A stretch of 41,845 nucleotides of DNA from a virus (taxonomy: Duplodnaviria; Caudoviricetes): IMG/VR virus record IMGVR_UViG_3300012933_000154, positions 1 through 41,845 of that record. The stretch is one strand, 5' to 3'. The position numbers and the translations under genes were made by a program. Below are positions 4,053 to 29,476 of this stretch, in pieces (position 1 is the first letter of the stretch; each line of letters opens with the position of its first letter). The notes under the pieces were generated by a model that saw only the letters and a list, made by a program, of their open reading frames with translations, searched no databases and was not told where the DNA came from.

Positions 4053-5585
4053 TCAGATAGGCAAACCGTTTCTTACGCCCATATCGAGCATTTCCCACGG
4101 ATCCATAGTCACCACAGTGCCCTGCTGATATAAAGCGTAAGGGTTATCCACAACAGCGCCAATCTCAGCACAGGCATAAACGGCAGCATCCAAATTGTCA
4201 GGAGATTTCATGCCACGGGAGCGCATATCGTCCTTAGACTCAATCTGAACACCACCCTTAGGGGAAAACTTGAACTTAATCATCAACATTTCGTCCAGCA
4301 ACTTCTCATCACGAGGGTCAATGTCCAGTTCGCGCTTCGCCATCTTCTCACGCATCTGGTCATAATACAAAGCACGAGCGTTCAACCAGCGAAGGGTATC
4401 AGGCGACTTACCTGAACCAATCATCGCCACAACCTTATAACCCTTACGGTCATAATTGCCATCATTCATCAAAATATCGATAACACCAGCACCAATACCA
4501 GAACCGTCAATACGAACCTCAGAAGCATTAGTATCAATCGCAATACGGTGAATACGCCCAGCCGTCTCAGTCAACGTAACCTTGTTCCACTTGTCATAAA
4601 GTCGCAGGCGGCCCTCATGGTTAGTGTAAACAGCGTTATAGTCGTCACCCATACGGGCAATGTCGACACCCAAAACGCAAGGCTTATCCAAGTTCTCCGG
4701 AACCTCAGTGTCCACAGCGCGATCAATGTTCGCCTGCGAGAAAAACATCGCATCCGACTCTTCAGGGAACTCAGCCAAAATCTTAGCCTTAAAGCGGGCC
4801 GAATCCTCACCCCACTGAATCTTCATATCCTCAACCCACTGCACCTGAGGCAGAAGGCTCGCCAACTTCTCAGAAACCGGCTCCCCCGTAAAGTTCGGGG
4901 TATCGTGTGCCGAAATGGTCAACTTAGTCCAAGTAGGGTCATTCTGTTTAAAAATGCGACCAAACGCAGTCTGAACATCATCAGGGTTAGCAATCGCCAA
5001 AATGCGACAATTCTCCGCAGTCGTATTAACTTCCGCAGCGGTAAAAATCATCTCAGGGCAACCAACAGCCTCATCAATCAAAAACATGACACCATCAGGT
5101 CGGTGCAAACCCTGAAACGCAGAAAAGTCCATGTCGGCAGGGCGGCGACCAAAAGCAATCTGCTTCTCAATGATACGCTTGTTACCCTTATCATCCACAC
5201 CCTCAACTGGGGTCTTCCACTGGTCATCCTGCGTAATCTTCCCAGGCAAACCATTCTCAACATAATGTTTACGGATTTCCTCCCACAAAATGTTATGCAC
5301 CTGGTTATAAGTAGGCGCAGTAGACACCACAAGGCTATTTGGGCCACGAGTACTAATCCACCAACAAGCAGCAATACCCATCGTGTAAGACTTACCAGTC
5401 GAGTGAGCAGACTTCACAGCCGTACGCTTATTCTGCGCCAAAGACATCAACATGTCTTTCTGCTTCGACCACAACTCGGCCCCCAGAACCTCCTCAGCCC
5501 ACAAAACCGGGTCGTTATAGTACAAGTCATTCTTAGACTTCTTACGGAGTACCTCTAGCGCCCCGTCAATAACCTCGTCAAGCAC
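4053..5585 (-). CDS. terL: Terminase large subunit
   Basis: Walker A 'SAHSTGKS', Walker B 'FLIDEA', motif III 'ANP', nuclease motifs 'LGVDIARMGDD' and 'SPDNLDA'. Confidence 0.95.
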   Translation of the reverse strand: MLDEVIDGALEVLRKKSKNDLYYNDPVLWAEEVLGAELWSKQKDMLMSLAQNKRTAVKSAHSTGKSYTMGIAACWWISTRGPNSLVVSTAPTYNQVHNILWEEIRKHYVENGLPGKITQDDQWKTPVEGVDDKGNKRIIEKQIAFGRRPADMDFSAFQGLHRPDGVMFLIDEAVGCPEMIFTAAEVNTTAENCRILAIANPDDVQTAFGRIFKQNDPTWTKLTISAHDTPNFTGEPVSEKLASLLPQVQWVEDMKIQWGEDSARFKAKILAEFPEESDAMFFSQANIDRAVDTEVPENLDKPCVLGVDIARMGDDYNAVYTNHEGRLRLYDKWNKVTLTETAGRIHRIAIDTNASEVRIDGSGIGAGVIDILMNDGNYDRKGYKVVAMIGSGKSPDTLRWLNARALYYDQMREKMAKRELDIDPRDEKLLDEMLMIKFKFSPKGGVQIESKDDMRSRGMKSPDNLDAAVYACAEIGAVVDNPYALYQQGTVVTMDPWEMLDMGVRNGLPI

Positions 5586-6631: not shown

Positions 6632-7480
6632 TTATTTGCGGTCGCGCAACATCTGGCGTAGGTGGTTCAGGTCTCGCGCGCCTCCGAGCCAGAAGACGCT
6701 CGCGTTGCCTTTGGCGAATTCGACAATCTCAATCAGCAACATTGCCCAAGCGCGAATCTTGGCGGTGTCGGTCTCGCCTGCGTGCTGACGGAATTCGATG
6801 GTCTTCGGGCGGTAACTGCCATCGTGAAAGTGGGTTGCGGTGTTTACGGCGCGGTATTTCTCCGAGCCGTAGCCTTGGCGTGCGTGGTCGCTGTCGGCTA
6901 GTCTCGGGGCTTGCGCGTAGTAAACGCCTTGTCTGCCTGCTAGGGGGTCGAGGATGTGCAGGGCTTGGCGGTATGCGCTGATTACTCGCGCAACCTGCTG
7001 TGGGGTCAGGTCGGCGCTTCCAATGTGGATGTGCAAGCCTGTCGAGTCGTTGGTTTCGCAATCGCTCAATCCTGACTCGGCGAGGATGGCGAGGGCTTCG
7101 GGGTGTGTGGTCGAGATTCCGCCGATGGATGTAATTTCTTGGTATTCGCCAGTTCCCGAGCAGGCAGAGCCTCCGCAATGGTCTAGCGAGGTATAGCCGT
7201 TGGTTAGGTCGCAATTATCGCAATCGCAAGAGTGTTCGCAGTCCGAGCAGTCGCACTCGCAGTCGTGGTCTCCATCGTTGCCACGCGTAACGCTTCCGTC
7301 TCCCTTGAATTCCAAGTTTTCGCGCATTAGCGCAAAGTCAATTCGGGCGTGCACATTGTCCGCGTCTGGGGTCTCGATTTCAAAGCCCCAAGTGCGTGGG
7401 GTCTCGGTCGGCTCGGCTTCGGCTAAAGCTTCGGCGTAGGTGTAGAACTGGCGAATTACTTCGTAGGTGTTGATGGTCAT
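6632..7480 (-). CDS. Putative amidoligase (COOH-NH2 ligase, Amidoligase_2-like) with Cys-rich insert
   Basis: Family motifs 'TWGFEIE', 'DGSV', 'EITS', 'TGLHIHIG', 'KYRAVN', 'KTIEFRQHAG'. Confidence 0.85.
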   Translation of the reverse strand: MTINTYEVIRQFYTYAEALAEAEPTETPRTWGFEIETPDADNVHARIDFALMRENLEFKGDGSVTRGNDGDHDCECDCSDCEHSCDCDNCDLTNGYTSLDHCGGSACSGTGEYQEITSIGGISTTHPEALAILAESGLSDCETNDSTGLHIHIGSADLTPQQVARVISAYRQALHILDPLAGRQGVYYAQAPRLADSDHARQGYGSEKYRAVNTATHFHDGSYRPKTIEFRQHAGETDTAKIRAWAMLLIEIVEFAKGNASVFWLGGARDLNHLRQMLRDRK

Positions 7481-7650
7481 TAGTTGCCTGCCTTTGGTAG
7501 TGATAGGGCGATGAGTGAGACTAGGGCGGTTGCTAGGGCGATTGCGGTTAGGTGTGGGGACTGTTCGCCGTCTGATAGGTAAAGCCCGAGGAATAAGCCT
7601 AGGTTCAGGGTGAACGCTAAGACTGTCGCTAGTTGGCGTAGTTCGCGCAT
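7480..7650 (-). CDS. Small two-TM membrane protein (56 aa)
   Basis: ATG at 7650 with AGAAAGG RBS; MRELRQLATVLAF... has two hydrophobic segments; TAATG coupling to the amidoligase gene. Confidence 0.7.
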   Translation of the reverse strand: MRELRQLATVLAFTLNLGLFLGLYLSDGEQSPHLTAIALATALVSLIALSLPKAGN

Positions 7651-7696
7651 TGGTGTTGCCTTTCTGTGTGGTCGGTGGGGCGGTTGCCTTACTCCA

Positions 7697-7725
7697 AGTT
7701 TACGGGGTTCCCCGATGTTGCACAA
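7697..7725 (-). promoter_or_regulatory. SigA-type promoter for the membrane protein/amidoligase operon
   Basis: TTGTGC-17 nt-TAAACT; spacer holds inverted repeat CGGGG-n2-CCCCG; tandem GACACGACAC upstream at 7751-7760. Confidence 0.65.
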
Positions 7726-7805
7726 GTCTTTATAGGGATTTTCTTTTGGCGTGTCGTGTCCCCTTATAGGGGCGTTTCTAGCTCGTGATTTATCGCTAGA
7801 TTTTA

Positions 7806-7821
7806 TCGAACAGATTTTCGA
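7806..7821. promoter_or_regulatory. LexA (SOS) box, one mismatch
   Basis: TCGAAC-AGAT-TTTCGA versus actinobacterial consensus TCGAAC-N4-GTTCGA. Confidence 0.6.
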
Positions 7822-7851
7822 AAATCCGGTCGAGCCGGGAACGACTATTTT

Positions 7852-7867
7852 TCGAACATTTGTTCGA
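7852..7867. promoter_or_regulatory. LexA (SOS) box, perfect consensus
   Basis: TCGAAC-ATTT-GTTCGA in non-coding DNA. Confidence 0.8.
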
Positions 7868-7935
7868 TAGCTGACGGCCGGCATTGCGCGGTTTTGTCTA
7901 GGGGGGGTTGACAGAATCCTGCCCCGATTTTCACG

Positions 7936-7979
7936 CTCTCAGCCGGCTCTCAGGAAACTCTCAGGAAACTCTCAGGGTT
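7936..7979. repeat. Four tandem 11-bp units with CTCTCAG core
   Basis: CTCTCAG at 7936, 7947, 7958 and 7969. Confidence 0.9.
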
Positions 7980-8047
7980 CTGCCCTGCGCGCGCGCCCGC
8001 GTATAAGCGCGCAAGCGAGCGAGCGAGCGCAAGTAGGTGCTACACCC

Positions 8048-8179
8048 AGCGCGAATTCCCAAATAGAGCGCGAGTGCCAGCGTCAGCGCGAATTCCCAAA
8101 TACTACGGCGAGCGCGTGCCCCAACGAGCGCGAATTCCCAAATAGGCAGGCGTGCAATGCCAGCGCGAATTCCCAAATA
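8048..8179. repeat. Four identical 18-bp direct repeats AGCGCGAATTCCCAAATA
   Basis: Copies at 8048, 8085, 8127 and 8162; spacers of 19, 24 and 17 nt. Confidence 0.95.
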
Positions 8180-8188
8180 TCGATCGAT

Positions 8189-8218
8189 TTGACACGATGG
8201 CCTGACACCTGCTAACTT
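8189..8218 (+). promoter_or_regulatory. SigA-type promoter
   Basis: TTGACA-18 nt-TAACTT with TG extension. Confidence 0.5.
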
Positions 8219-8270
8219 ACATTTCAGCAACAACCCCACGATGGTCTGACCCCCCTCAAACCGTTATGGC

Positions 8271-8299
8271 TTGACAGGTGACAACTTGTCCGGTAGAGT
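8271..8299 (+). promoter_or_regulatory. SigA-type promoter
   Basis: TTGACA-17 nt-TAGAGT. Confidence 0.7.
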
Positions 8300-8305
8300 T
8301 GTTGT

Positions 8306-8387
8306 TACGAGCCATCGAGGAGGATGGTTTGGGAGTTTACGAGGTTCGACTTTCCGTGGTTGGGGAGTCGGGTCTCGTTTTCTTTTT
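8306..8387 (+). ncRNA. Candidate small RNA (~80 nt)
   Basis: Bounded by the promoter at 8271-8299 and a terminator; 5' hairpin GAGCCATC/GATGGTTT with GAGGAG loop; 5' end estimated. Confidence 0.5.
8339..8387 (+). terminator. Intrinsic terminator
   Basis: 17-bp stem ACGAGGTTCGACTTTCC/GGGGAGTCGGGTCTCGT; its G.U pairs form only on the + strand; followed by TTTCTTTTT. Confidence 0.75.
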
Positions 8388-8408
8388 CCTTTATTTCGTT
8401 CCTATTAC

Positions 8409-8437
8409 TTGACATAATGTTGTTTTGTTTGTAAACT
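8409..8437 (+). promoter_or_regulatory. SigA-type promoter of the amidotransferase gene
   Basis: TTGACA-17 nt-TAAACT; GAAGGAG RBS at 8466-8472. Confidence 0.8.
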
Positions 8438-8482
8438 GTTTATTAGACCGCACAAGTGTTGCGGTGAAGGAGTGTGTTGTTT

Positions 8483-9535
8483 ATGTGTTCAATTGCTGGT
8501 TTTAGTTTGTCTCGTGGTTCTGTTGTGAGCCCTCGTAAGTTGTCTCGTGCTTTGTTGGTTGAGATGGATGTTCGCGGTAATCAGGCTTCTGGTTTTGCGT
8601 GGCAGTCGCCGTCTGGTGCTGGCGTGTTCAAGAAGGATGTTGCCGGTGCGAATCTGCCTACTAAGTCAATGCCTAAGGATGCTGGCGTTGTTGTGTTGCA
8701 CACTCGTTATGCGACTCACGGCACTATCAAGAATATGGCGAATAACCACCCTGTTCTCAGCCCTGATAAGTCCATCTCGTTGGTGCACAATGGCGTTATC
8801 TATAATCACGATATTGTTCGCACTCACCTAGACGCTACTTTGCCCGAGGTTGATACGGCTGTTATTCCTGCCATCCTTGAGCAGTTCGGTCGTGACGCTG
8901 ACAAGTTCTCTATGCTCGATGGTGACGCTTCGGTTGCGTGGTTGGATGATTCTGACCGTATGACTCTCAAGGTTGCTCGTATCAGTCACTCACCGCTTGT
9001 TATTGCCCAGTTGGCTGATGGCTCGTTCGTGTTTGCTTCTACAGAGACCATCTTGCTAAATGCCCTAAAATCGATCGATGTTCCGGTTGTTTATATGGAG
9101 GTTGTCCCTGAGCGCGTTCTTATGACTGTTCGTGACGGTCGTTTGTGTGATGTTGAGGCGTTGCCTTCGCTTGACCCTGCGTTCGAGCAGAAGTTCGATT
9201 ACTCGACTAGCAAGTATCGTGATATGACTTCTGGCGGTTGGGGTTCGACCGATACTCTCGGCTATAAGTTCAATGCGCCGTCTACTGCGTTTGGCGGTGG
9301 CGAGTTGTATCAGTTCGAGGGTTTGGTGGAGCAACTTGGCTACCCTGTTGTCTCGGGTATGGTGGCTAACGAGTTCGGTGAGTATTTCGATGAGATGGGC
9401 AACTTTATGGGGTCGTTTGACGATTTGGTGGAGACCGGCTACATTCGTGAGTCAGACTTTTACACTCAGGATAGCCAGACTATTTCGTCTCGGACTTCGA
9501 TGTTTGCGGAGCGTTATGTTAGTGACCTTTTCTAA
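8483..9535 (+). CDS. Class II (Ntn) glutamine amidotransferase
   Basis: Start at ATG 8483 gives N-terminal nucleophile 'MCSIAG'; 'RG.QASG', 'HTRYATHG', 'NNHP', 'HNGVI.N', 'VDT', 'FASTE'. Confidence 0.9.
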   Translation: MCSIAGFSLSRGSVVSPRKLSRALLVEMDVRGNQASGFAWQSPSGAGVFKKDVAGANLPTKSMPKDAGVVVLHTRYATHGTIKNMANNHPVLSPDKSISLVHNGVIYNHDIVRTHLDATLPEVDTAVIPAILEQFGRDADKFSMLDGDASVAWLDDSDRMTLKVARISHSPLVIAQLADGSFVFASTETILLNALKSIDVPVVYMEVVPERVLMTVRDGRLCDVEALPSLDPAFEQKFDYSTSKYRDMTSGGWGSTDTLGYKFNAPSTAFGGGELYQFEGLVEQLGYPVVSGMVANEFGEYFDEMGNFMGSFDDLVETGYIRESDFYTQDSQTISSRTSMFAERYVSDLF

Positions 9536-20917: not shown

Positions 20918-23119
20918 ATGTTAACAAAAGATTTTTTCGAAGCGATTTACGGAGACGGTGCAGGCTACGCCACACTAGTCACCCGAGACGCTAGAAACAA
21001 CCCAACAGTTCAGAAGTTTTTCAGTTACCCTGATGAAATCGACGAAATGGTCGAATACTCAGAGCGATTCAAAGACGAAGACGTTTACGTCTCACCAATC
21101 CTGTTCTACGAAGAGCGACGAATCCGCGAGAACGCCAAATCTGTCGCAGTAGTCTACGCAGACGCAGACGCATGCCCACCAGAGAAGTTCCTAATCGAAC
21201 CGTCAATCTCTGTGCAGACATCACCAAACCGCTGGCACTGCTACTGGATTCTGCCACAGTCACACGACCCAGCCCAGATTGCCCTGCTATCAAAGAAGGT
21301 AGCCTACGCGCACAAAGACGACGGCTGTGACCTATCAGGCTGGAACCCAACCAAGTTGCTTCGTGTTCCAAACACAAGCAACCGCAAATACGATGTCTCG
21401 CACCCTGTAATCGCAACCACCACCGGCGCAATCTACACCGTTGCCGACATGGAAGCAGTCTACGGAGACATCAAGGTTGACTCGATCCTCGACCTAAGCC
21501 TTCAGCCAATGCCAGAACAGCCACTAAATGTTATGGACATCCTAGGCAAAGTCCCAAGCAACCCAGAAGTAATGTCTCTCTACCTAGATGAGCCACTACC
21601 GGGGCAGGATTTGTCACGCCGACTTTGGAAACTAGAACTTGAACTATTCCGTGTCGGGCTAACCGCCGAAGAAGTCTTCGCTGTAGTTCGCCACGCAAAG
21701 TGCAACAAATACCACCGCACAGACCGCCCAAAGCGCATGGACGCAGACGGCGACCTGTGGCGTGAAGTTCAGCGCGCCTCGCAGGTCTACCTAGTAGACG
21801 GCAATGCCGCTTTCGAGAAGATGGAACTCATCCCGAAAGAAGAAGAGAAGAAGGTAGACTTCCTACTCGCTCACGAGCGCGAGATTGTCAAAGACCACCC
21901 AACCTTCATTGACCGTTACAACGACTGGGCTTCAAAGAAGACAGATGCCGCATACCAGTATCAGGTAGCGTCAGCGTTCACCGTGCTCTCATCGGCGTTC
22001 TCAGATAGTGGACACGCAATCCCTAAATACGGCAAGATGGGCCTAAACCTTTGGTTCATGATTCTCGGTGAAACAACCCGTAGCCGTAAGTCGACCTCGC
22101 GTCAACTAATGCTACGAATGGTTCGTGAATACGAAAAGTTCGCCGGCTACCAGATCGATGTCGGTTCAGATGTGACCGCAGAAGGTCTAGTCAAGTTGCT
22201 GTCAAACCGCGACAAGCAGACCTCGCTATTCCACCGCGACGAAGTTCAGGGTATGTTCAAAGACTTCATCAACAAAACATACATGGCAACCGCTGCTGAA
22301 CGCTTCACCGAACTCTATGACGGACACGTCCCAGTGGTCGTTCGCTCAACCGGCGGAGGCACGCCGGGCAAGGGTTCACAGTCTGAGCGCGCGGAAACCA
22401 ACTTCATCATGTATCTAATGGGAATCACCTCAAAGACCGCAGATGTTCTAACAACCGAATATTTCCGTTCAGGATTCCTAGCCCGATTCATTTATGTAAT
22501 CGCAGACGCACCAGACCGCACCTACGAAAGCGAAGCAATCCAGCAAGCCGACGAAGTAGAGGTATCTGTTCGCGACGAAGAGATGCACGCAATCGTGCGC
22601 TCACTCTACGACTCATACATGTATTGGCAGAAGAAGGGCGCACCATTCCCACGCCCAGTTCGCATGACAGACGAGGCCCTAGAGCGCTTCAACGCCTTCA
22701 AATGGGAGATGGGTAACTTTACCGCAGGGCACGAACACGAAGACTCTATCGAGCCTTCACGCCAGCGTCTAGCCCTATCTGTTTGGAAGTGCGCCGTGCT
22801 CCTAGCAATGTATGACAAGTCAGACATGGTAGAACTACGCCACCTGTTAATCGCAATCCACTACTCAGAAGACTGGTTCAAGAACCTAGTCCGAATGGCT
22901 GGAGCAATCTCAGCGTCAGAATGGCAACGAGAAGTAGACGAACTAGAAGCACTCGTCACCTCAAAGGGTGGACGCATGCGCTACGAAGAGGCATACCGTC
23001 GCTTTGGCGCGAAGCGTAAGCGCGAGTTCGACGAAATGGTTGACGCGCTAAAGTCTCAAGGCAGAATGGCAATCGTAAACGAAAGCAACAAGATGTTCTT
23101 GGAGGTGGCTCGTGGATAA
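20918..23119 (+). CDS. AEP primase(-polymerase) fused to a DUF3987-like P-loop helicase
   Basis: N-terminal 'YADAD', 'QTSP.RWH.YW', 'LLRVP'; C-terminal 'LGETTRSRKST', 'T.EGL', 'RDE', 'SGFLARF'; ATG 20918 after GAAAGG. Confidence 0.82.
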   Translation: MLTKDFFEAIYGDGAGYATLVTRDARNNPTVQKFFSYPDEIDEMVEYSERFKDEDVYVSPILFYEERRIRENAKSVAVVYADADACPPEKFLIEPSISVQTSPNRWHCYWILPQSHDPAQIALLSKKVAYAHKDDGCDLSGWNPTKLLRVPNTSNRKYDVSHPVIATTTGAIYTVADMEAVYGDIKVDSILDLSLQPMPEQPLNVMDILGKVPSNPEVMSLYLDEPLPGQDLSRRLWKLELELFRVGLTAEEVFAVVRHAKCNKYHRTDRPKRMDADGDLWREVQRASQVYLVDGNAAFEKMELIPKEEEKKVDFLLAHEREIVKDHPTFIDRYNDWASKKTDAAYQYQVASAFTVLSSAFSDSGHAIPKYGKMGLNLWFMILGETTRSRKSTSRQLMLRMVREYEKFAGYQIDVGSDVTAEGLVKLLSNRDKQTSLFHRDEVQGMFKDFINKTYMATAAERFTELYDGHVPVVVRSTGGGTPGKGSQSERAETNFIMYLMGITSKTADVLTTEYFRSGFLARFIYVIADAPDRTYESEAIQQADEVEVSVRDEEMHAIVRSLYDSYMYWQKKGAPFPRPVRMTDEALERFNAFKWEMGNFTAGHEHEDSIEPSRQRLALSVWKCAVLLAMYDKSDMVELRHLLIAIHYSEDWFKNLVRMAGAISASEWQREVDELEALVTSKGGRMRYEEAYRRFGAKRKREFDEMVDALKSQGRMAIVNESNKMFLEVARG

Positions 23120-23513
23120 CGACATTAACCGCATGCGCGCAATCAACGAAGCCATCTGGCTACGCGACAACGCCACACGCCTACCAAGGCCAGAACTTGT
23201 CAAGATCGTCACAGACATCACCCGATACGAAGTCTACTCAGCAAGGCAACTCTCTGTGCTAACCGGAGGCGCTCTCTCGCACCAAACCGTCGCAAGATTA
23301 GCAGGTAAAACTGCCAAAACCGGCGGTCGGCTTGCGCCCGAAAGCCTAGACGACATCAAACAATGCTTCCACGACCGTGTAAGTAAAAACGTAAACTTCA
23401 TAACCGTGAAGCGCGTGCTAGATTCCGGCACATCCCAAGGGATGCTCAAAAAGTTGAGCGGAATCAGCCAAGCAAAAATTAGCAAAGGCGTAACAAAACT
23501 TGGACCTCTTTAG
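23112..23513 (+). CDS. HTH DNA-binding protein
   Basis: Two HTH-like segments ('SARQLS..TGG.LSHQTV', 'SQGML.KLSGISQ.KIS'); GGAGG RBS. Confidence 0.65.
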   Translation: MDNDINRMRAINEAIWLRDNATRLPRPELVKIVTDITRYEVYSARQLSVLTGGALSHQTVARLAGKTAKTGGRLAPESLDDIKQCFHDRVSKNVNFITVKRVLDSGTSQGMLKKLSGISQAKISKGVTKLGPL

Positions 23514-23646
23514 TCGCAAAGCAAAATTCGAATTCGTAATCCAAAACGAAGAGGCGGTAATGTTCCACGCAGTCAAATGGCAGTCAGGCGCTCGCTACGA
23601 ACTAGCGAAGCAATGCTTCCAATACGTTCAGCAGAAGAAAAAATGA
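23500..23646 (+). CDS. Small hypothetical protein (48 aa)
   Basis: Translated by hand from TTG; its stop overlaps the resolvase ATG (ATGA). Confidence 0.5.
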   Translation: MDLFSRKAKFEFVIQNEEAVMFHAVKWQSGARYELAKQCFQYVQQKKK

Positions 23647-24098
23647 AAAGCATCCTAGCCTTCGACCCCGGAGGGACAACCGGCTTCGCGTTCATTGGAT
23701 ACACGGACGACACAGAAGCAGTAATCTTTGAATCGGGACAAATCCCAAACGGACACAAAGGATTTATTGAATGGTGGAACGATCGCGTAGTCTACCTCCC
23801 AGAAACCGCCATCGTGTGCGAGTCGTTCACGCTAAGAGAAGGTGTCCGAGGTGTGAACTTAGAACCGTGCTATGTGATGGGTGCACTCGAAGCCTTGTAC
23901 AACGACAAAATCTTCTATCAGTCGCCTTCGTACAAAAGTTTCTGCGATAACGACGCGCTCAAGGAACTAGGCTTCTACGTCCGAGGGCAACAGCACGCAA
24001 GAGACGCTTTCAGACACGCAGTTGCATACCTTCGAACACAAGAACGACACAAGCCGACACTCCTAAAAGGTTGGCCCGACAGGGATCTAGTAGAATAG
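23643..24098 (+). CDS. RuvC-like Holliday junction resolvase
   Basis: 'ILAFDPGGTTG', 'VCESF', 'HARDA'. Confidence 0.82.
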   Translation: MKSILAFDPGGTTGFAFIGYTDDTEAVIFESGQIPNGHKGFIEWWNDRVVYLPETAIVCESFTLREGVRGVNLEPCYVMGALEALYNDKIFYQSPSYKSFCDNDALKELGFYVRGQQHARDAFRHAVAYLRTQERHKPTLLKGWPDRDLVE

Positions 24099-24153
24099 TG
24101 TTAATAACACTATACTTAAACTTGACAGTTAACGTAAAATAAGGGGCGACCAG

Positions 24154-25479
24154 TTGTCAACCAATTGCAAACTATGCGGGCTACTACCAGACGCAGAACT
24201 ATCAACTGCACTAATGACTAAATCAAGTCGTTGGATTGCAAGCCGCTACGCAGTTGGCAAAACAACCGTGAACACTCACAGAAACGCCTGCATGGGCATC
24301 GGCGTTCCAGAAGCGACCGAGACTCGCATGGAAGACAACGAACTCAAAGAAGTTGTCTGGAACGGCGACAAAGGCGAACTCCGCACCGGAACTCTAGGCC
24401 AATCACTTAGCAACGTAAGCCCAGAATCAATCCTAGAGATGTTCGGCTACAACAGCGACGAAGTAGAAATCGTCGGTGTGCTACGAGAAAAGCACGCCCA
24501 GTACTGGAGCCGAGACCTAGAAGAGATGCTGTGGAAGCACAGTTACGCCTTCGGTGTCAAGCGCAAGCAAGCAACAGAAGTAACTGACTCAATCGACCCA
24601 GTAGCGCTACTCAAAGAACTGGGAATCAAATCACAAACAAAAACAACTAACAAAGTAAATGGGGAAGACTCAACGTGGGTATTGGACTGGGCAGACTGGC
24701 AGGTCTGCAAAGCAGAAGGTGGGGGCTCGGCTGGCTTCGTTCAGCGCTTCAACCAAGTAATGGAAAGCGCACAAATTCGACTAGACGAACTTCGAAGCAC
24801 AGGGCGCAAACTCAACGAATTGCTGATAATTGGCGGAGGAGATATCGTCGAGGGATGCGTAATCTATCCCCAGCAATCATTCCATATCGATGGGCACAGG
24901 CGCGATCAAATCAGGCTCGCCGTCGCAACAATATTGCAAGGGCTGTACACTCTCGCACCACAGTTCGATAAAGTCCGACTACTCGTCGTCCCGGGAAACC
25001 ACGGCGAACACCGCATCAACGGCAACCGCACCGCAATTGGCGACAACGACGACCTGCTAGTTTTTGAAATGGCGCAGGTTGCCATCGCCAACGACCCAAA
25101 CATGCAGCACGTCTCATTCGAAATCGCTGAAGACGAAGTGTCAATGGTCACAGAAGTTCAAGGCTGGAAGTATGGTGCAACACATGGTGACGTTTACGGT
25201 CGTAGCGGTGGCTCCGGTATTCGCAACAAGGTCTTCAACTGGGTTCGCACGATGGCCGCTAACCGCCACCCTGTTGGCTTGGTTGACGTGCTTGTCACTC
25301 ACCACTATCACCACGACGCTTTAGAGGATTGGGGATCAATGCTATGGGTTCAAAATCCAACAATGGATGGTGGAAGTCACTACTACAAAGAAGCAACCGG
25401 TCACTACGCAAGACACGGAATGAACAGTTGGGTAGTCACGAAGAGCGAGCGTTTCCAAGACAAACAGATTCTCCGATAG
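24154..25479 (+). CDS. Calcineurin-like metallophosphoesterase (Mre11/SbcD-related)
   Basis: 'ADWQ', 'GDIVEG', 'PGNHG', 'HGD', 'HYHH'; N-terminal C..C and HTH-like region. Confidence 0.85.
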   Translation: MSTNCKLCGLLPDAELSTALMTKSSRWIASRYAVGKTTVNTHRNACMGIGVPEATETRMEDNELKEVVWNGDKGELRTGTLGQSLSNVSPESILEMFGYNSDEVEIVGVLREKHAQYWSRDLEEMLWKHSYAFGVKRKQATEVTDSIDPVALLKELGIKSQTKTTNKVNGEDSTWVLDWADWQVCKAEGGGSAGFVQRFNQVMESAQIRLDELRSTGRKLNELLIIGGGDIVEGCVIYPQQSFHIDGHRRDQIRLAVATILQGLYTLAPQFDKVRLLVVPGNHGEHRINGNRTAIGDNDDLLVFEMAQVAIANDPNMQHVSFEIAEDEVSMVTEVQGWKYGATHGDVYGRSGGSGIRNKVFNWVRTMAANRHPVGLVDVLVTHHYHHDALEDWGSMLWVQNPTMDGGSHYYKEATGHYARHGMNSWVVTKSERFQDKQILR

Positions 25480-25691
25480 TAGACGTATTCTTCGATCCTG
25501 ACACCGGTAAGTATTACGAAGCGACACTAATCTGCTCGTGCGACACCCCAGTCTATGGCTTGCCTGAACGGCACTTCTTCTGCCAGCACTGCGACCTACC
25601 GTGCCCAGAAGAGCCATGCGTCACTTGTTGGGGTTATAATAGAAACATCGACGAGCGACTAGCGTGGCTTGAAGATGAGGGCTTGGATTAG
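25428..25691 (+). CDS. Cys-rich putative Zn-binding protein (start uncertain)
   Basis: CSC...CQHCD.PC....C..C; nearest in-frame start is TTG 25428. Confidence 0.55.
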   Translation: MGSHEERAFPRQTDSPIVDVFFDPDTGKYYEATLICSCDTPVYGLPERHFFCQHCDLPCPEEPCVTCWGYNRNIDERLAWLEDEGLD

Positions 25692-25761
25692 GTTTCGTCT
25701 ACACTTAAAATCCGTACACGGCCGGTGTAGCACCACGGTTCGATTCCGTGCAGGTCCACTA
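25679..25761 (+). ncRNA. Miniature tmRNA-like RNA (tRNA-like domain only, no tag ORF)
   Basis: Acceptor stem GGGCTTG/CAGGTCC with G3.U70 and discriminator A; stemless 13-nt D-loop containing GGTTTCG; stem CTACAC/GTGTAG; 3-nt linker; T arm CACGG-TTCGATT-CCGTG. Confidence 0.75.
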
Positions 25762-25772
25762 AAACTAAATAA

Positions 25773-25848
25773 TCCCCTATAACTCAGTTGGTAGAGTGTT
25801 CGGCTGTTAACCGAAATGTCATTGGTTCGAGTCCAGTTGGGGGAGCCA
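25773..25848 (+). tRNA. tRNA-Asn(GTT)
   Basis: Full cloverleaf: TCCCCTA/TGGGGGA, anticodon arm TTCGG-CTGTTAA-CCGAA, encoded CCA. Confidence 0.95.
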
Positions 25849-25849
25849 A

Positions 25850-25954
25850 CAGTAACGACGGTCAGTGAGCCTAGCGTAAACTAACCCCCGCCTGAACTTC
25901 TATGTCTGGTGCTAGGATGTTAGTTGTTACTGGGTGGGTTCTGCAGAACCTGCC
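25850..25954 (+). ncRNA. Unidentified structured RNA between the tRNAs
   Basis: Nested stems CAGTAACGAC/GTTGTTACTG and CCTAGCG/TGCTAGG, plus 3' hairpin GGTGGGTTC/GAACCTGCC. Confidence 0.55.
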
Positions 25955-25958
25955 ACTA

Positions 25959-26029
25959 GTGTCCCAAGTGTTACGGTAGCACGTCGGTCTCCAACACCGA
26001 AAGCCTAGGTTCGACTCCTAGGGGATATG
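25959..26029 (+). tRNA. tRNA-Trp(CCA)
   Basis: GTGTCCC/GGGATAT; anticodon arm TCGGT-CTCCAAC-ACCGA; T arm CTAGG-TTCGACT-CCTAG; discriminator G; no encoded CCA end. Confidence 0.88.
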
Positions 26030-26044
26030 CTGAAAAGGAGTAAC

Positions 26045-26233
26045 ATGCCAACATACGAATACAAGTGCCCAACATGCCAAACTAAATACACAGAAGTTAG
26101 AAGCATGCACGAGGCTCAGACAATCACAGACTGCGAGAACTGCAAAGTTCCGCTAATCAAGCAGTACGGGTCCCCGACTGTAACCTTCAACGGCAGTGGC
26201 TTTTACAGCACAGATAAGAAGAACAATGGCTGA
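26045..26233 (+). CDS. FmdB-family zinc ribbon protein
   Basis: 'MPTYEYKC..C', 'C..C', 'F.GSGFY.TD'; AAAGGAG RBS. Confidence 0.88.
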   Translation: MPTYEYKCPTCQTKYTEVRSMHEAQTITDCENCKVPLIKQYGSPTVTFNGSGFYSTDKKNNG

Positions 26234-26546
26234 CGAATACAAAGTCCCATCCGGCGTGCAAAGCGCAGCAAGCCGAGCCCTCAAATGGATCGCTGACGGC
26301 AAAGCCGGCGGAGGATTCACCTCAGTCGGAAGACGCAGAGCATCACAACTCGCAGCAGGCGGATCGATCAGCCGCGACACCGTAGCCCGAATGAAGTCAT
26401 ACTTTGCACGACACCGCGTAGACCGTCAAGCCACAGGCTTCAACTCAGGCGAAGAAGGCTATCCATCACCGGGCCGAGTCGCATGGGACGCTTGGGGCGG
26501 AGACGCGGGCCAAGCATGGGTCACAAGAATAAAACTAGACAAGTAG
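26226..26546 (+). CDS. Conserved phage protein of unknown function
   Basis: 'A.RAL.W', 'VG..RA.QLA', 'RM.SYFARH', 'AW..WGG.AG' pattern recalled from phage proteins; not verified by search. Confidence 0.7.
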   Translation: MADEYKVPSGVQSAASRALKWIADGKAGGGFTSVGRRRASQLAAGGSISRDTVARMKSYFARHRVDRQATGFNSGEEGYPSPGRVAWDAWGGDAGQAWVTRIKLDK

Positions 26547-26547
26547 A

Positions 26548-26582
26548 AGAAAACCCCCAGTCACCTCGTCTGGGGGTTTTCT
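26548..26582. terminator. Bidirectional terminator at the convergence of the two genome arms
   Basis: AGAAAACCCCCAG/CTGGGGGTTTTCT with 9-nt loop. Confidence 0.85.
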
Positions 26583-26600
26583 CTGTCGGGTAATTCCGCC

Positions 26601-26840
26601 CTACGGTAGCAGGACGCTTACTGCCGATACCAACACAGCCATAATGGCAATGCCGATCGCAATCTTGTTGCTCTTGTCGTCGCGCTGAGTCTTCAGTTCC
26701 TTGACATCAAGTTCGATTTCGTTAATGCGAGCATCTTGCGCATCAAACTTTTTTTCCATGCGGTCTTGTGATTCGCGCATATTGCGAACACTCTCCTCAA
26801 TTCTTCCAAGGGTTACGTAAAGTTCCGGCGACTCCGACAT
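26601..26840 (-). CDS. Membrane protein (coiled coil plus C-terminal TM), lysis-cassette type
   Basis: Heptad pattern then a hydrophobic C-terminus; last gene of the late arm. Confidence 0.7.
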   Translation of the reverse strand: MSESPELYVTLGRIEESVRNMRESQDRMEKKFDAQDARINEIELDVKELKTQRDDKSNKIAIGIAIMAVLVSAVSVLLP

Positions 26841-26846
26841 TCGTTC

Positions 26847-27101
26847 TTACTTCTCCGAGTCGTGCTGCTCTTGCAACTTATTGAAAGACGAGTTCATTTC
26901 ATCAGAAGTGATTTTGCCATCGTTCAGGAAGTTGCGCGACATCTCTTCTGCGATCTCCATGATACCGACTGCAGCCGCCATCACACATGACTGCCAAAAG
27001 GCAAGCCCAATTGCAGAACCTCCAACGAAAGTTCCGCTAATCTTCATGATTATGTAGGCGAGAGTGCGACCAGATAGGTCTTTAACAATCTGCTTGTCCA
27101 T
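26847..27101 (-). CDS. Putative holin
   Basis: Small, two hydrophobic segments, charged C-terminus with 'DGKIT.DE.N'; near the endolysin. Confidence 0.55.
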   Translation of the reverse strand: MDKQIVKDLSGRTLAYIIMKISGTFVGGSAIGLAFWQSCVMAAAVGIMEIAEEMSRNFLNDGKITSDEMNSSFNKLQEQHDSEK

Positions 27102-27157
27102 TTTTACTCCAACGGTTATGCGCCCATTGGTTAATAGTATTACTATTGTACCTTATG

Positions 27158-27346
27158 TTATTTGTCGGAGTTTCGAATCTTGCTGGTGGCAACCCACACA
27201 ATAAGAGTCACGATAACAATGTTTGCAGTCGTGGTCTTCGCAGAACCTTCGAGCACAAGCCAACCAACGGCTAGTGCAACCAAAGTCCACAACTGGTCCA
27301 AAACTTCCATAAAAATGGTCTTTAGTGCCGATGCGATTTTCTTCAT
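27158..27346 (-). CDS. Small two-TM membrane protein
   Basis: 'QLWTLVALAVGWLVLEGSAK' and a second TM; coupled to the upstream gene. Confidence 0.7.
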   Translation of the reverse strand: MKKIASALKTIFMEVLDQLWTLVALAVGWLVLEGSAKTTTANIVIVTLIVWVATSKIRNSDK

Positions 27347-28806
27347 TATTTTATCTTTCTAGTAGATGATGTTGCTGCTGATGCTGATACGGCAGCCGAC
27401 GCGGCTGCTGACGCTACTTGCCCAACGATTACGGACGCGACAACGGCATCCTCCGCCTGCTCACGGACCACAGGAGACATATCCGCCCCGATGTTACCGA
27501 TCGCGTTAAAAGTCTCTAGAGCGGCCCCTGCAGCCTCTCCCAGAAGGGGAATAGCGGCCAACTCTGCAGGCAGTTCAGCGTCATCCGCCTGGGCGAGCAC
27601 AGTCAGAGCCTCAAGCGCCTGCGCATACTCCGGAGAGCCTTGCTGGGCAGTCTCGAACACTGCCATAACAGCAGCCTCCAACTGTGCGACCTGAACATCT
27701 GTCATTTCTTCCGGCGCGATTTCTTCTAAGTCCTCGATGACTGCGATAGACTTTTCTTCTACACTCTCAACAACAGGAGGTTCAGGTGCAGGTTCTGCAA
27801 CAGGTTCGGGCGCTGATTCGGCTAAAGGTGGCTCTACTGCTGGCGCGGGTGTTTCTGTCTCGACAGGAACTGGATCAGGTTCTGGCTGAGGGCTTTCGAC
27901 AGGCTCAGGTGCAGGCTCTGGCTCAGGAGCAGGCTCGACAGGAAAAGGAATAGGCTGTGGCTGGGGAGCAGGTTCAACAACAGGTGGAGTCACGACTGGT
28001 TCCGCAATCGGAATGGGCGAAGGCTCTGGCTGACTCGGCTGGGGTTGCTCTGGGACTACTGGGTCTGGCGGTGTATCTGAAGATGTCGCTGGGGTTTCCG
28101 TTGGTGCTGGTGTTGGGGTTGGTGACGGCTCGATTTGCCCTGGCGCTACTGTACTGGTCAGGTTCACGCGCAAAACCTTAACGACTCCACCGCAAGGGTC
28201 GCCAAATACGCCGTTGTCGGCGCTAACCTCAAAAGTGTTGCTACCAAGATAGGTCGCCAAGACTGCGCTAACATCAGCGCCGCAACTCGGATCATTCGGT
28301 GCGCCATACCAGCCAGTTACAGCAGTAAAGACTTCACCTGCTGGGGCAGTAGCCGAAAACAGCTGACCTTCCCAAGTGCCAGTTTCAACAACCGGCTCAG
28401 TCACAATAGGGGCAGAGAAGATTGGGCCATACCAGCCACCCCAAAAACCCTCATCCTTGCCAGAAGCCTGAATCAGAACCTCGCCAGAAACAACTGTCTC
28501 AACAGTAAAAACTTCAATGCTGTTGCCCTGCCAAGTCTGACCGTTAATAGTCAAAGTCCACGTATCAGGAATCGGCGTGCAAGTACCAATACAGTTAGCA
28601 GTCGTATTGTTCACAGTCATGGCAATGGTTGACCCCTCAGCAGCCTGCAGGGTTTGAACAGCCGAACCGCCACGATAATCAAACTGCACAGAGCCATCGA
28701 CAACTCGACCATTAGTCGTCTGCCACTCAGCAGCCAAAGCCGGCTGTGCAAAAGCAAGTGAACCAAACGCCAAAAAAAGCGCTGCAACCAGTCTGATCTT
28801 TTTCAT
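27346..28806 (-). CDS. Exported Pro-rich protein with SUEL/galactose-lectin-like domain
   Basis: Signal peptide (MKKIRLVAALFL...ALA); 'YG....C...N.VFGDPCGGVVKVL.V'; long PEP/APE linker; Ala-rich C-terminus. Confidence 0.7.
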   Translation of the reverse strand: MKKIRLVAALFLAFGSLAFAQPALAAEWQTTNGRVVDGSVQFDYRGGSAVQTLQAAEGSTIAMTVNNTTANCIGTCTPIPDTWTLTINGQTWQGNSIEVFTVETVVSGEVLIQASGKDEGFWGGWYGPIFSAPIVTEPVVETGTWEGQLFSATAPAGEVFTAVTGWYGAPNDPSCGADVSAVLATYLGSNTFEVSADNGVFGDPCGGVVKVLRVNLTSTVAPGQIEPSPTPTPAPTETPATSSDTPPDPVVPEQPQPSQPEPSPIPIAEPVVTPPVVEPAPQPQPIPFPVEPAPEPEPAPEPVESPQPEPDPVPVETETPAPAVEPPLAESAPEPVAEPAPEPPVVESVEEKSIAVIEDLEEIAPEEMTDVQVAQLEAAVMAVFETAQQGSPEYAQALEALTVLAQADDAELPAELAAIPLLGEAAGAALETFNAIGNIGADMSPVVREQAEDAVVASVIVGQVASAAASAAVSASAATSSTRKIK

Positions 28807-28823
28807 ATATCCCTCAAATAAAA

Positions 28824-28853
28824 AATGGACCCCAGAATAAACCGGGGCCCATT
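28824..28853 (-). terminator. Intrinsic terminator after the endolysin gene
   Basis: Minus strand AATGGGCCCC/GGGGTCCATT followed by a T-run. Confidence 0.7.
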
Positions 28854-28870
28854 AGTTTTTAAATTATTTG

Positions 28871-29476
28871 TTACTGAGCGGATGCTTTCGCAGCCAATCT
28901 TGCAGCCTCAAGCATTTCAGCCTGAGCGTCATCGTGCGTAGGAGCAGGAGCAATAAGCGCCTCTTCTGGAGTAGCAACAGGAGCAGTAGCAATAGCCTTC
29001 TCCTTAGCAATCAAAGCCTTGAAGAAAGCAATCGGCTCAATATAGTTCTTGCCAGCAGCATCCCAAATGTGAGACTTGCCAAGACGCAACTCCCAGTGAA
29101 GGTGCTTACCGGTCGACATCCCAGTCGTGCCCATCTTGCCAAGAGGCATACCAGCAGTTACCTTCTGGCCCTTCTTGACCTTGATAGTGCCATCCTGCAT
29201 GTGAGCGTAAAGGGTGGTGTAGAACTTGCCGTCAATCTTGTGAAGAATGATTACGAAGTTACCGAAGCCGCCACCTGCAGCAGTAGACTTGCGAGCCTCT
29301 AGAACCTTGCCATCGTAAGGCGCTTCGATCCAGCAAGGTTCGTGGTGCGACCAGATGTCGGTACCGTTGTGGTGCTTCTTAACGTTCAACTTTGGGTGGA
29401 TACGCCAGCCCATGAGAGAAGTGATCTTGAAGTCTTTGCCTAGTTTTCCGTCAATCGGGAACTGTGCTTTAGCCAT
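28871..29476 (-). CDS. Endolysin, M23 peptidase
   Basis: 'HNGTD', 'LYAH', 'G.TG.STG.HLH.E'. Confidence 0.9.
   Translation of the reverse strand: MAKAQFPIDGKLGKDFKITSLMGWRIHPKLNVKKHHNGTDIWSHHEPCWIEAPYDGKVLEARKSTAAGGGFGNFVIILHKIDGKFYTTLYAHMQDGTIKVKKGQKVTAGMPLGKMGTTGMSTGKHLHWELRLGKSHIWDAAGKNYIEPIAFFKALIAKEKAIATAPVATPEEALIAPAPTHDDAQAEMLEAARLAAKASAQ

What the first reader, a model, noticed from the sequence alone, without database searches (positions are those of the whole stretch)
25679..25761. Miniature tmRNA mimic: alanyl tRNA-like domain with no tag reading frame
Seen: GGGCTTG-GATTAGGTTTCGT-CTACAC-(20 nt)-GTGTAG-CAC-CACGG TTCGATT CCGTG-CAGGTCC-A-CTA, first in a tRNA cluster. Known tmRNA hallmarks are matched: G3.U70 and discriminator A (AlaRS identity), a stemless D-loop with GGTTTCG (actinobacterial ssrA starts GGGGCTGAACGGTTTCGAC), a P2 helix in place of an anticodon arm, and a 3-nt linker to the T arm, which is the SmpB-binding surface. 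The pseudoknot/mRNA domain of several hundred nt is replaced by 20 nt. The usual D-loop-terminal A and linker G are changed to T and C. I know of tagless tmRNAs from jakobid mitochondria and full-length ones from phages, but not of this form in phages. Inference: an SmpB/EF-Tu decoy that inhibits trans-translation, a tag-free ribosome rescuer, or a decoy for tRNA/tmRNA-targeting defence toxins.
Basis: partly seen in the sequence, partly recalled or inferred. Interest (0 to 1): 0.9.

Follow-up and report, generated by a model that had tools for sequence, protein, structure and literature searches.

The report
Phage tag-less mini-tmRNA, DS6A family
This freshwater phage carries an 80-base gene that copies only the tRNA-like end of the bacterial ribosome-rescue RNA (tmRNA); this kind of gene is already known from one mycobacteriophage, turns out to recur unannotated in many phages, and likely works by soaking up the host's rescue protein SmpB so that stalled proteins are not tagged for destruction.

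Summary
The element is real: 25679-25758 is a tmRNA tRNA-like domain (G3.U70, A73, stemless D-loop, P2a helix, 3-nt linker, T arm) with no tag frame. It is not a new kind. Mycobacteriophage DS6A's 'TLD only' tmRNA is in print (PMC4131195, PMC11915505), and a model built without either sequence scores the window 65 bits and DS6A 61 (next hit 20). This scan has already reported the family on other genomes. What the calls add: 116 distinct viral copies of nearly fixed length, strong helix covariation, unannotated copies in cultured Streptomyces phages, a conserved A-rich loop plus hairpin inside the '20 nt', and no SmpB or full-length tmRNA in 48 carrier contigs. The upstream gene's stop codon lies inside the RNA. 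Most likely it is an alanine-chargeable competitor for host SmpB that dampens tagging (0.55); tag-free ribosome rescue is the main rival. Expression and function were not testable here.

The parts
25679..25761 (+). Tag-less (TLD-only) mini-tmRNA gene; 80 nt to the discriminator, then CTA at the CCA position
   Evidence: Sequence; held-out model R1 65.0 bits
25679..25685 (+). Acceptor stem 5' strand, G3 at 25681; pairs with 25751-25757 (U70 at 25755); A73 at 25758
   Evidence: G3.U70 and A73 in 116 of 116 unique viral copies (U70 and A73 partly fixed by the search pattern, G3 not)
25686..25698 (+). Stemless D-loop with U17, C18, G19 (SmpB-contact positions in E. coli numbering) and variant U20 at 25698
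   Evidence: contact positions from PMC8363625 passages
25699..25730 (+). P2a helix (25699-25705/25724-25730) capped by an A-rich loop (25706-25711) and a 3-bp hairpin (25712-25721) in place of the pseudoknot and mRNA domain
   Evidence: Folds; P2a 7 of 7 pairs with two-sided changes; hairpin in 84 of 101 vs 35 in shuffles; same module in DS6A
25731..25733 (+). 3-nt linker: variant C333, conserved A334, C335
   Evidence: A334 in 116 of 116 viral copies, not fixed by the patterns
25734..25750 (+). T arm (5-bp stem, 7-nt T loop)
25461..25691 (+). Conserved Cys-rich ORF (start codon not fixed) whose last 13 nt, stop codon included, overlap the 5' end of the mini-tmRNA
   Evidence: tblastn hit in 19 of 19 syntenic phages; same 13-nt overlap in L123, no overlap in L122
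25773..25848 (+). tRNA-Asn(GTT), likely co-transcribed neighbour
   Evidence: also follows the mini in L122 and L123
25959..26030 (+). tRNA-Trp(CCA)

Best explanation
It is a phage gene for a tmRNA cut down to its tRNA-like domain, and the RNA likely competes with the host's full-length tmRNA for SmpB and so likely lowers tag-and-destroy rescue during infection. Shown: the gene, its structure by covariation, its membership of the DS6A family, the lack of a tag frame, and the lack of a phage SmpB. Inferred steps: transcription with the upstream operon; 5' cutting by RNase P and 3' trimming with CCA addition (the gene has CTA there, as DS6A does); charging by host AlaRS through G3.U70 and A73; binding of host SmpB through U17, C18, G19 and A334; sequestration of SmpB, and entry of Ala-RNA.SmpB.EF-Tu into non-stop ribosomes where it can take the peptide but add no tag. 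The benefit to the phage would be that its proteins, made while host mRNA decay or defence nucleases generate broken messages, escape ssrA-tag proteolysis.
For: Same family as DS6A. PMC4131195 states that a molecule like the DS6A RNA, chargeable or not, strongly inhibits tmRNA, perhaps by titrating SmpB; PMC11915505 says the DS6A form inhibited endogenous tmRNA in E. coli. SmpB-contact bases named in PMC8363625 are kept in the window; A334 is in 116 of 116 viral copies without being in the search patterns. A TLD fragment closed by a short loop binds SmpB in a crystal structure (PMC3985003). SmpB is absent from the window and from 0 of 48 carrier contigs, so the partner must be the host's. Full-length tmRNA is found in 0 of those 48 contigs, and 3 metagenome-assembled genomes hold both a mini and a full-length ssrA (binning not checked). 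Only 17 of 72 copies have a tRNA within 1 kb, so it is not just tRNA-array cargo.
Against: No expression, charging or binding data for this copy. The primary experiment (Mao 2009) was not readable and the two citing papers differ on whether the DS6A RNA itself or a similar molecule was tested. Inhibition was reported not to need charging, yet G3.U70 is invariant (116 of 116), which suggests that charging and ribosome entry matter. A pure decoy does not explain the conserved A-rich loop and hairpin. Streptomyces phage Riptide carries both a 269-nt tagged tmRNA and a mini, awkward for a simple inhibitor, although its mini has an altered D-loop and helix mismatches. U20 was seen in no full-length host tmRNA read here (0 of 29; 0 of 5), so this copy's SmpB affinity is not guaranteed.
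Confidence: 0.55

Rival explanations
1. Tag-free ribosome rescuer or alanine-tailing RNA: charged RNA with host SmpB enters non-stop ribosomes, takes the peptide, translocates, and frees or hands on the ribosome without a degradation tag; the conserved loop and hairpin serve ribosome transit.
For: Invariant G3.U70 and A73; tight length, 104 of 116 at 75-80 nt; conserved cap module; peptidyl transfer to a TLD-only tmRNA is reported (PMC3895274 passage); tagless tmRNAs persist with SmpB in mitochondria (PMC11915505).
Against: No stop codon is supplied, so release needs another factor; the one reported test of this form showed inhibition. The outcome for tagging would overlap with the best explanation.
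Confidence: 0.22
2. Decoy for host defence proteins that recognise tmRNA or tRNA (nucleases, or systems with SmpB-like domains).
For: CoCoNuT defence systems carry SmpB-like domains predicted to bind tmRNA (PMC11090510 passages; a prediction). Patchy presence among close phages (2 of 19 syntenic relatives) fits an arms-race accessory gene. Coexistence with a tagged tmRNA in Riptide is easier to explain.
Against: No defence system is shown to be blocked by such an RNA in the papers seen; patchiness fits any accessory function; most copies do not sit in tRNA arrays (17 of 72).
Confidence: 0.13
3. Non-functional relic: an attP fragment of host ssrA, a recent deletion remnant, or a decayed tRNA.
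For: ssrA is a common integration site (PMC11915505); this copy is missed by ARAGORN and RF00023.
Against: Both halves of the domain are present and co-vary (96.2% of cells paired vs 69.1% shuffled; 15 of 22 pairs with two-sided changes). No tyrosine or serine integrase in the window (record about 85% complete) and a tyrosine integrase in only 5 of 48 carriers. The P2 cap does not resemble the P2 region of 29 host tmRNAs. In two near-identical relatives the only differences listed inside the gene are in loops.
Confidence: 0.04

Closest known systems
Mycobacteriophage DS6A 'TLD only' tmRNA (tmRNA Website tmID 11587; Phage__Mycobacterium.9; JN698994.1 28478-28557)
   Same: Same 80-nt length, alanine identity, P2a, A-rich loop and hairpin cap, C333 linker and CTA at the CCA position; both score above 60 bits on a model built without them.
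   Different: The window has the canonical host-type D-loop motif but U20 in place of A20; it sits in front of tRNA genes and overlaps an upstream ORF, in a freshwater WhiB-bearing phage with no integrase found.
Standard bacterial tmRNA (Rfam RF00023)
   Same: tRNA-like domain: G3.U70, A73, stemless D-loop, P2a, 3-nt linker, T arm; 17 of 20 homologs tested pass the RF00023 gathering score in about 80 nt.
   Different: No pseudoknots, resume codon, tag frame or stop; this copy itself does not match RF00023.
CDS-less organellar tmRNAs (mitochondrial RF02544; about 65-bp Mallomonadaceae plastid genes, PMC11915505)
   Same: Tagless tmRNA that keeps the tRNA-like domain.
   Different: Those are the organelle's only tmRNA and mostly permuted; here the RNA is phage-borne, one-piece, and meets a host with an intact ssrA.
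Full-length phage tmRNAs (Bxz1-like mycobacteriophages, Streptomyces phages Jada and Riptide)
   Same: Phage-borne ssrA derivatives near tRNA genes.
   Different: They keep a tag frame (about 270 nt in Jada and Riptide) and lack the mini's cap.

Membership tests
DS6A-type TLD-only phage tmRNA | Complete tmRNA tRNA-like domain, both halves in standard order | tested here: met
DS6A-type TLD-only phage tmRNA | No mRNA-like domain or tag frame | tested here: met
   32 nt between D-loop and linker, closed in cis
DS6A-type TLD-only phage tmRNA | Homology to the DS6A RNA | tested here: met
   Model R1 without either: window 65.0, DS6A 61.3 bits, best non-family hit 19.6; shared cap module
DS6A-type TLD-only phage tmRNA | Phage-encoded, no own SmpB | tested here: met
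   Virus record with capsid, tail and WhiB genes; no SmpB; record about 85% complete
DS6A-type TLD-only phage tmRNA | Inhibits host trans-translation | not testable with these tools
   Reported for DS6A or a similar molecule; needs a bench test here
Standard tmRNA (RF00023) | Alanine identity G3.U70 and A73 | tested here: met
Standard tmRNA (RF00023) | SmpB-contact bases U17, C18, G19, A334 | tested here: met
   against PMC8363625 passages; position 15 is U, as in 29 host tmRNAs read except one with C
Standard tmRNA (RF00023) | Tag reading frame and pseudoknot ring | tested here: not met
   Absent; no RF00023 match for this copy
Permuted two-piece tmRNA (RF04321) | 3' half of the tRNA-like domain precedes the 5' half; separate coding piece | tested here: not met
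   Standard order, P2 closed in cis; no Rfam hit in 23000-29000; the downstream structured RNA occurs without a mini in 5 of 5 contigs
Ordinary tRNA (RF00005) | D stem and 7-nt anticodon loop | tested here: not met
   No D stem; ARAGORN miss; 18.9 bits against a cut-off of 29

The most novel reading that the evidence does not exclude
These RNAs are not passive decoys but a phage-borne, tag-free ribosome rescue or alanine-tailing system run on host SmpB, in which the conserved A-rich loop and hairpin replace the whole mRNA domain; and in this lineage the cut that frees the RNA also strips the stop codon from the upstream gene, so that the RNA controls the fate of its own neighbour's protein.
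Probability: 0.2. Interest if true: 0.8.

Novelty: new member of a known kind. Interest (0 to 1): 0.45.

Why it matters
In the papers found, the phage TLD-only tmRNA is a single curiosity (DS6A; 9 'standard, no CDS' genes among 97,179 in the 2025 database). The calls show a widespread, strongly selected family that ARAGORN misses, with unannotated copies in Streptomyces phages that grow on laboratory hosts (LuckySocke, Shaeky, BRock, Riptide read here). That makes an old open question testable: whether phages actively shut down trans-translation, and whether a tagless tmRNA inhibits or rescues, which also bears on mitochondrial tagless tmRNAs. The U20/C333 subtype and the fixed cap are natural probes of what SmpB and the ribosome need. 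This one copy adds little beyond the family.

Tried and rejected
ARAGORN and Rfam do not call this copy. Folding energy alone is not significant. The promoter scan found no full consensus site upstream. No RNA holder was listed among public runs, so expression is untested; laid runs were DNA contigs only. The genome-contig scan was dominated by the 3' piece of permuted picocyanobacterial tmRNA and tRNAs; only 13 of 120 loci parsed as minis. The idea that U20/C333 mirrors the host tmRNA was not supported: G333 in 37 of 40 genomes of a related actinobacterial order, a non-G linker in 1 of 301, a chance coding match; across the phylum 7 of 201 genomes had the C333 linker and the 5 read have A20; the real host is unknown. 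The absence of full-length tmRNA in 48 carriers does not show mutual exclusion, since only about 2.3% of phages carry one (PMC9004378). The structured RNA at 25850-25955 was considered as a separate coding piece and rejected (absent beside the minis of L122 and L123; present without a mini in L510-L514). RNAalifold did not predict the cap hairpin and only 1 of its 3 pairs shows two-sided change. Mao 2009 was not held; the 2025 database itself was not in the supplement text that could be read (cut file, no phage names), so overlap between its 9 CDS-less genes and my set is unknown. Literature searches for a family-level description found none.

Full report
Observation. The sequence at 25679-25761 is as described: a 7-bp acceptor stem with G3.U70, discriminator A at 25758, a stemless D-loop, a P2a helix of 6-7 pairs, a 3-nt linker, a T arm, and CTA at the CCA position. 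The predicted fold recovers the helices, but its energy is not beyond shuffles (z -0.27 and -1.16). ARAGORN finds only tRNA-Asn and tRNA-Trp in the window; Rfam gives a sub-threshold tRNA hit and no RF00023 match. The window is a virus record, about 85% complete, with capsid, tail and WhiB genes, so its host is likely an actinobacterium. Related DNA occurs in freshwater and wetland metagenome contigs.

Homologs. A loose pattern over viral contigs returned 120 of an estimated 660 stretches, of which 53 parsed as this architecture. A stricter pattern returned 120 of about 300, 110 of which parsed. A variant D-loop pattern gave 56 stretches, a mixture of minis and tRNAs. Pooling the viral loci gives 116 unique sequences, window included, one misparse (L049) dropped; 104 are 75-80 nt. 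Copies that my parser rejects (for example L076/L177, with a shifted helix register, and L439) are not in these counts. 17 of 20 homolog loci pass the RF00023 gathering score in about 80 nt. Cultured Streptomyces phages LuckySocke, Shaeky, BRock and Riptide carry unannotated copies; GiJojo, pSt2308 and Alone3 matched by BLAST only. Of 19 syntenic phages, 2 (L122, L123) carry it at the same place.

Structure. On 46 aligned copies (those with the same D-loop length, 46 of 98 aligned), 96.2% of cells pair against 69.1% in shuffles and at most 52.1% in slid controls; 15 of 22 pairs have two-sided changes. Caveats: the patterns fixed the D-loop and T-loop motifs and, the last four bases; the parser required pairing; related sequences inflate such counts. 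Not fixed by any pattern: G3 (A would pair with U70 as well) and A334, both 116 of 116 (107 and 106 of 108 in the set with genome hits). The '20 nt' is a conserved cap: A at one loop position in 96 of 101, and a Watson-Crick hairpin of 3 or more pairs in 84 of 101 against a mean of 35 (maximum 50) in 300 shuffles. The hairpin is less well supported than the other helices (1 of 3 pairs covary; not in the RNAalifold consensus). In two near-identical relatives the only differences listed inside the gene are at loop positions 25706 and 25717.

Known kind. PMC4131195 (passages read) lists 'Mycobacterium phage DS6A (TLD only)' and says a similar molecule, chargeable or not, strongly inhibits tmRNA, perhaps by titrating SmpB (citing Mao 2009). 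PMC11915505 (parts 1-3 of 5 read; supplement listed and searched but cut) counts 79 phage tmRNAs and 9 standard CDS-less genes in all, and says the DS6A form inhibited endogenous tmRNA in E. coli. Mao 2009 itself was not held. I located the DS6A RNA at JN698994.1 28478-28557: same length, same cap, same C333 and CTA end. Model R1, built without the window, L122, L123 or DS6A, scores them 65.0, 65.5, 70.8 and 61.3 bits; the best non-family hit is 19.6. Seven literature searches found no family-level description (listings only). Earlier notes of this scan report the same family on other genomes; none near this place.

The two 'changed' bases. Among 116 viral copies, 10 have U20 and all 10 have C333; 6 more have A20/C333 (the Fisher value of 1e-10 ignores relatedness, but three of the ten have an A20/G333 copy as nearest neighbour, and syntenic L123 is A20/G333). 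A targeted metagenome scan gave 25 of 81 loci scoring as minis with U20/C333 and an intact alanine acceptor that was not in the pattern. C333 also occurs in full-length host tmRNAs (7 of 201 phylum genomes; 5 read, all A20), whereas 29 of 29 from a related order are A20/G333. Neither base is among the SmpB contacts named in the passages of PMC8363625 (positions 15, 17, 18, 19, 334). So this is a tolerated subtype, with U20 seen here only in minis.

Context. Of 48 longer carrier contigs, none has a full-length tmRNA (all strong hits 76-89 nt; 3 had no hit at the cut-off), none has SmpB, and 5 have a tyrosine integrase; the window has no SmpB and no integrase of either type. Only 17 of 72 copies with full flanks have a tRNA within 1 kb. 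Three metagenome-assembled genomes hold a mini and a full-length ssrA. Against a simple inhibitor, Riptide has both a tagged 269-nt tmRNA and a mini, the latter with an altered D-loop and mismatches; its relative Jada has only the long form. The upstream Cys-rich ORF is conserved in 19 of 19 relatives, and in the window and L123 its stop codon lies inside the RNA, 13 nt of overlap; RNase P cutting would then leave a non-stop mRNA (inference; PMC4131195 notes a like overlap for smpB in Carsonella).

Mechanism. Shown: a selected, alanine-identity, SmpB-type tRNA-like domain without message, in phages without SmpB. From the literature: such a fragment binds SmpB (PMC3985003 passages), can accept a peptide (PMC3895274, one passage) and inhibits tmRNA in vivo. 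Inferred: processing, charging, and competition for host SmpB that lowers tagging (0.55). Rivals: tag-free rescue or alanine tailing (0.22), favoured by invariant G3.U70 and the fixed cap; decoy for defence proteins (0.13; PMC11090510 passages, prediction only); relic (0.04). RNase P, CCA-adding enzyme and AlaRS behaviour are taken from general knowledge and PMC3985003.

Verdict. Observation confirmed; interpretation partly supported; new member of a known kind (DS6A-type), already met by this scan elsewhere. Interest 0.45, resting on the family's unrecognised breadth and testability in laboratory phages rather than on this copy.

Noticed in passing
window 25850-25955: A second, unannotated structured RNA directly 3' of tRNA-Asn: a 10-bp outer stem (25850-25859 with 25923-25932), an inner stem and a following hairpin. 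Nearly identical in 5 viral contigs (L510-L514), always right after tRNA-Asn and better conserved than the tRNA; no Rfam match, no cultured-phage match. Identity unknown.
   Followed up: partly
window 25461-25691: Conserved small Cys-rich ORF with no Pfam match; its stop codon lies inside the mini-tmRNA here and in L123, and its start is unclear (it overlaps the end of the 441-aa gene).
   Followed up: partly
PV654398.1 83298-83374 and 94862-95130 (L498, L504): Streptomyces phage Riptide carries both a divergent mini and a tagged 269-nt tmRNA; neither falls under an annotation in the part read for the mini.
   Followed up: partly
L220, L263, L280, L302, L368, L385, L406: Still shorter TLD-only forms (65-70 nt) whose P2a ends in a plain loop without the cap; may be a second class or independent reductions.
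   Followed up: no
L123 about 1385-1440; L130 about 4515-4570: Two related phages share a short motif resembling a methionine anticodon loop inside a stem upstream of the zinc-ribbon gene; possibly another small RNA.
   Followed up: no
window 25635-25640; L122, L123, L125, L130-L132 at the end of the Cys-rich ORF: A -10-like hexamer recurs near the end of the Cys-rich ORF in several relatives, hinting at a dedicated promoter for the RNA cluster; the consensus scan did not call it.
   Followed up: no
L511-L513 upstream of tRNA-Asn: Long GC-balanced stretches between tRNA genes with no Rfam match, possibly further unannotated RNAs.
   Followed up: no
window 6632-9535: Amidoligase and glutamine amidotransferase genes on opposite strands.
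   Followed up: no
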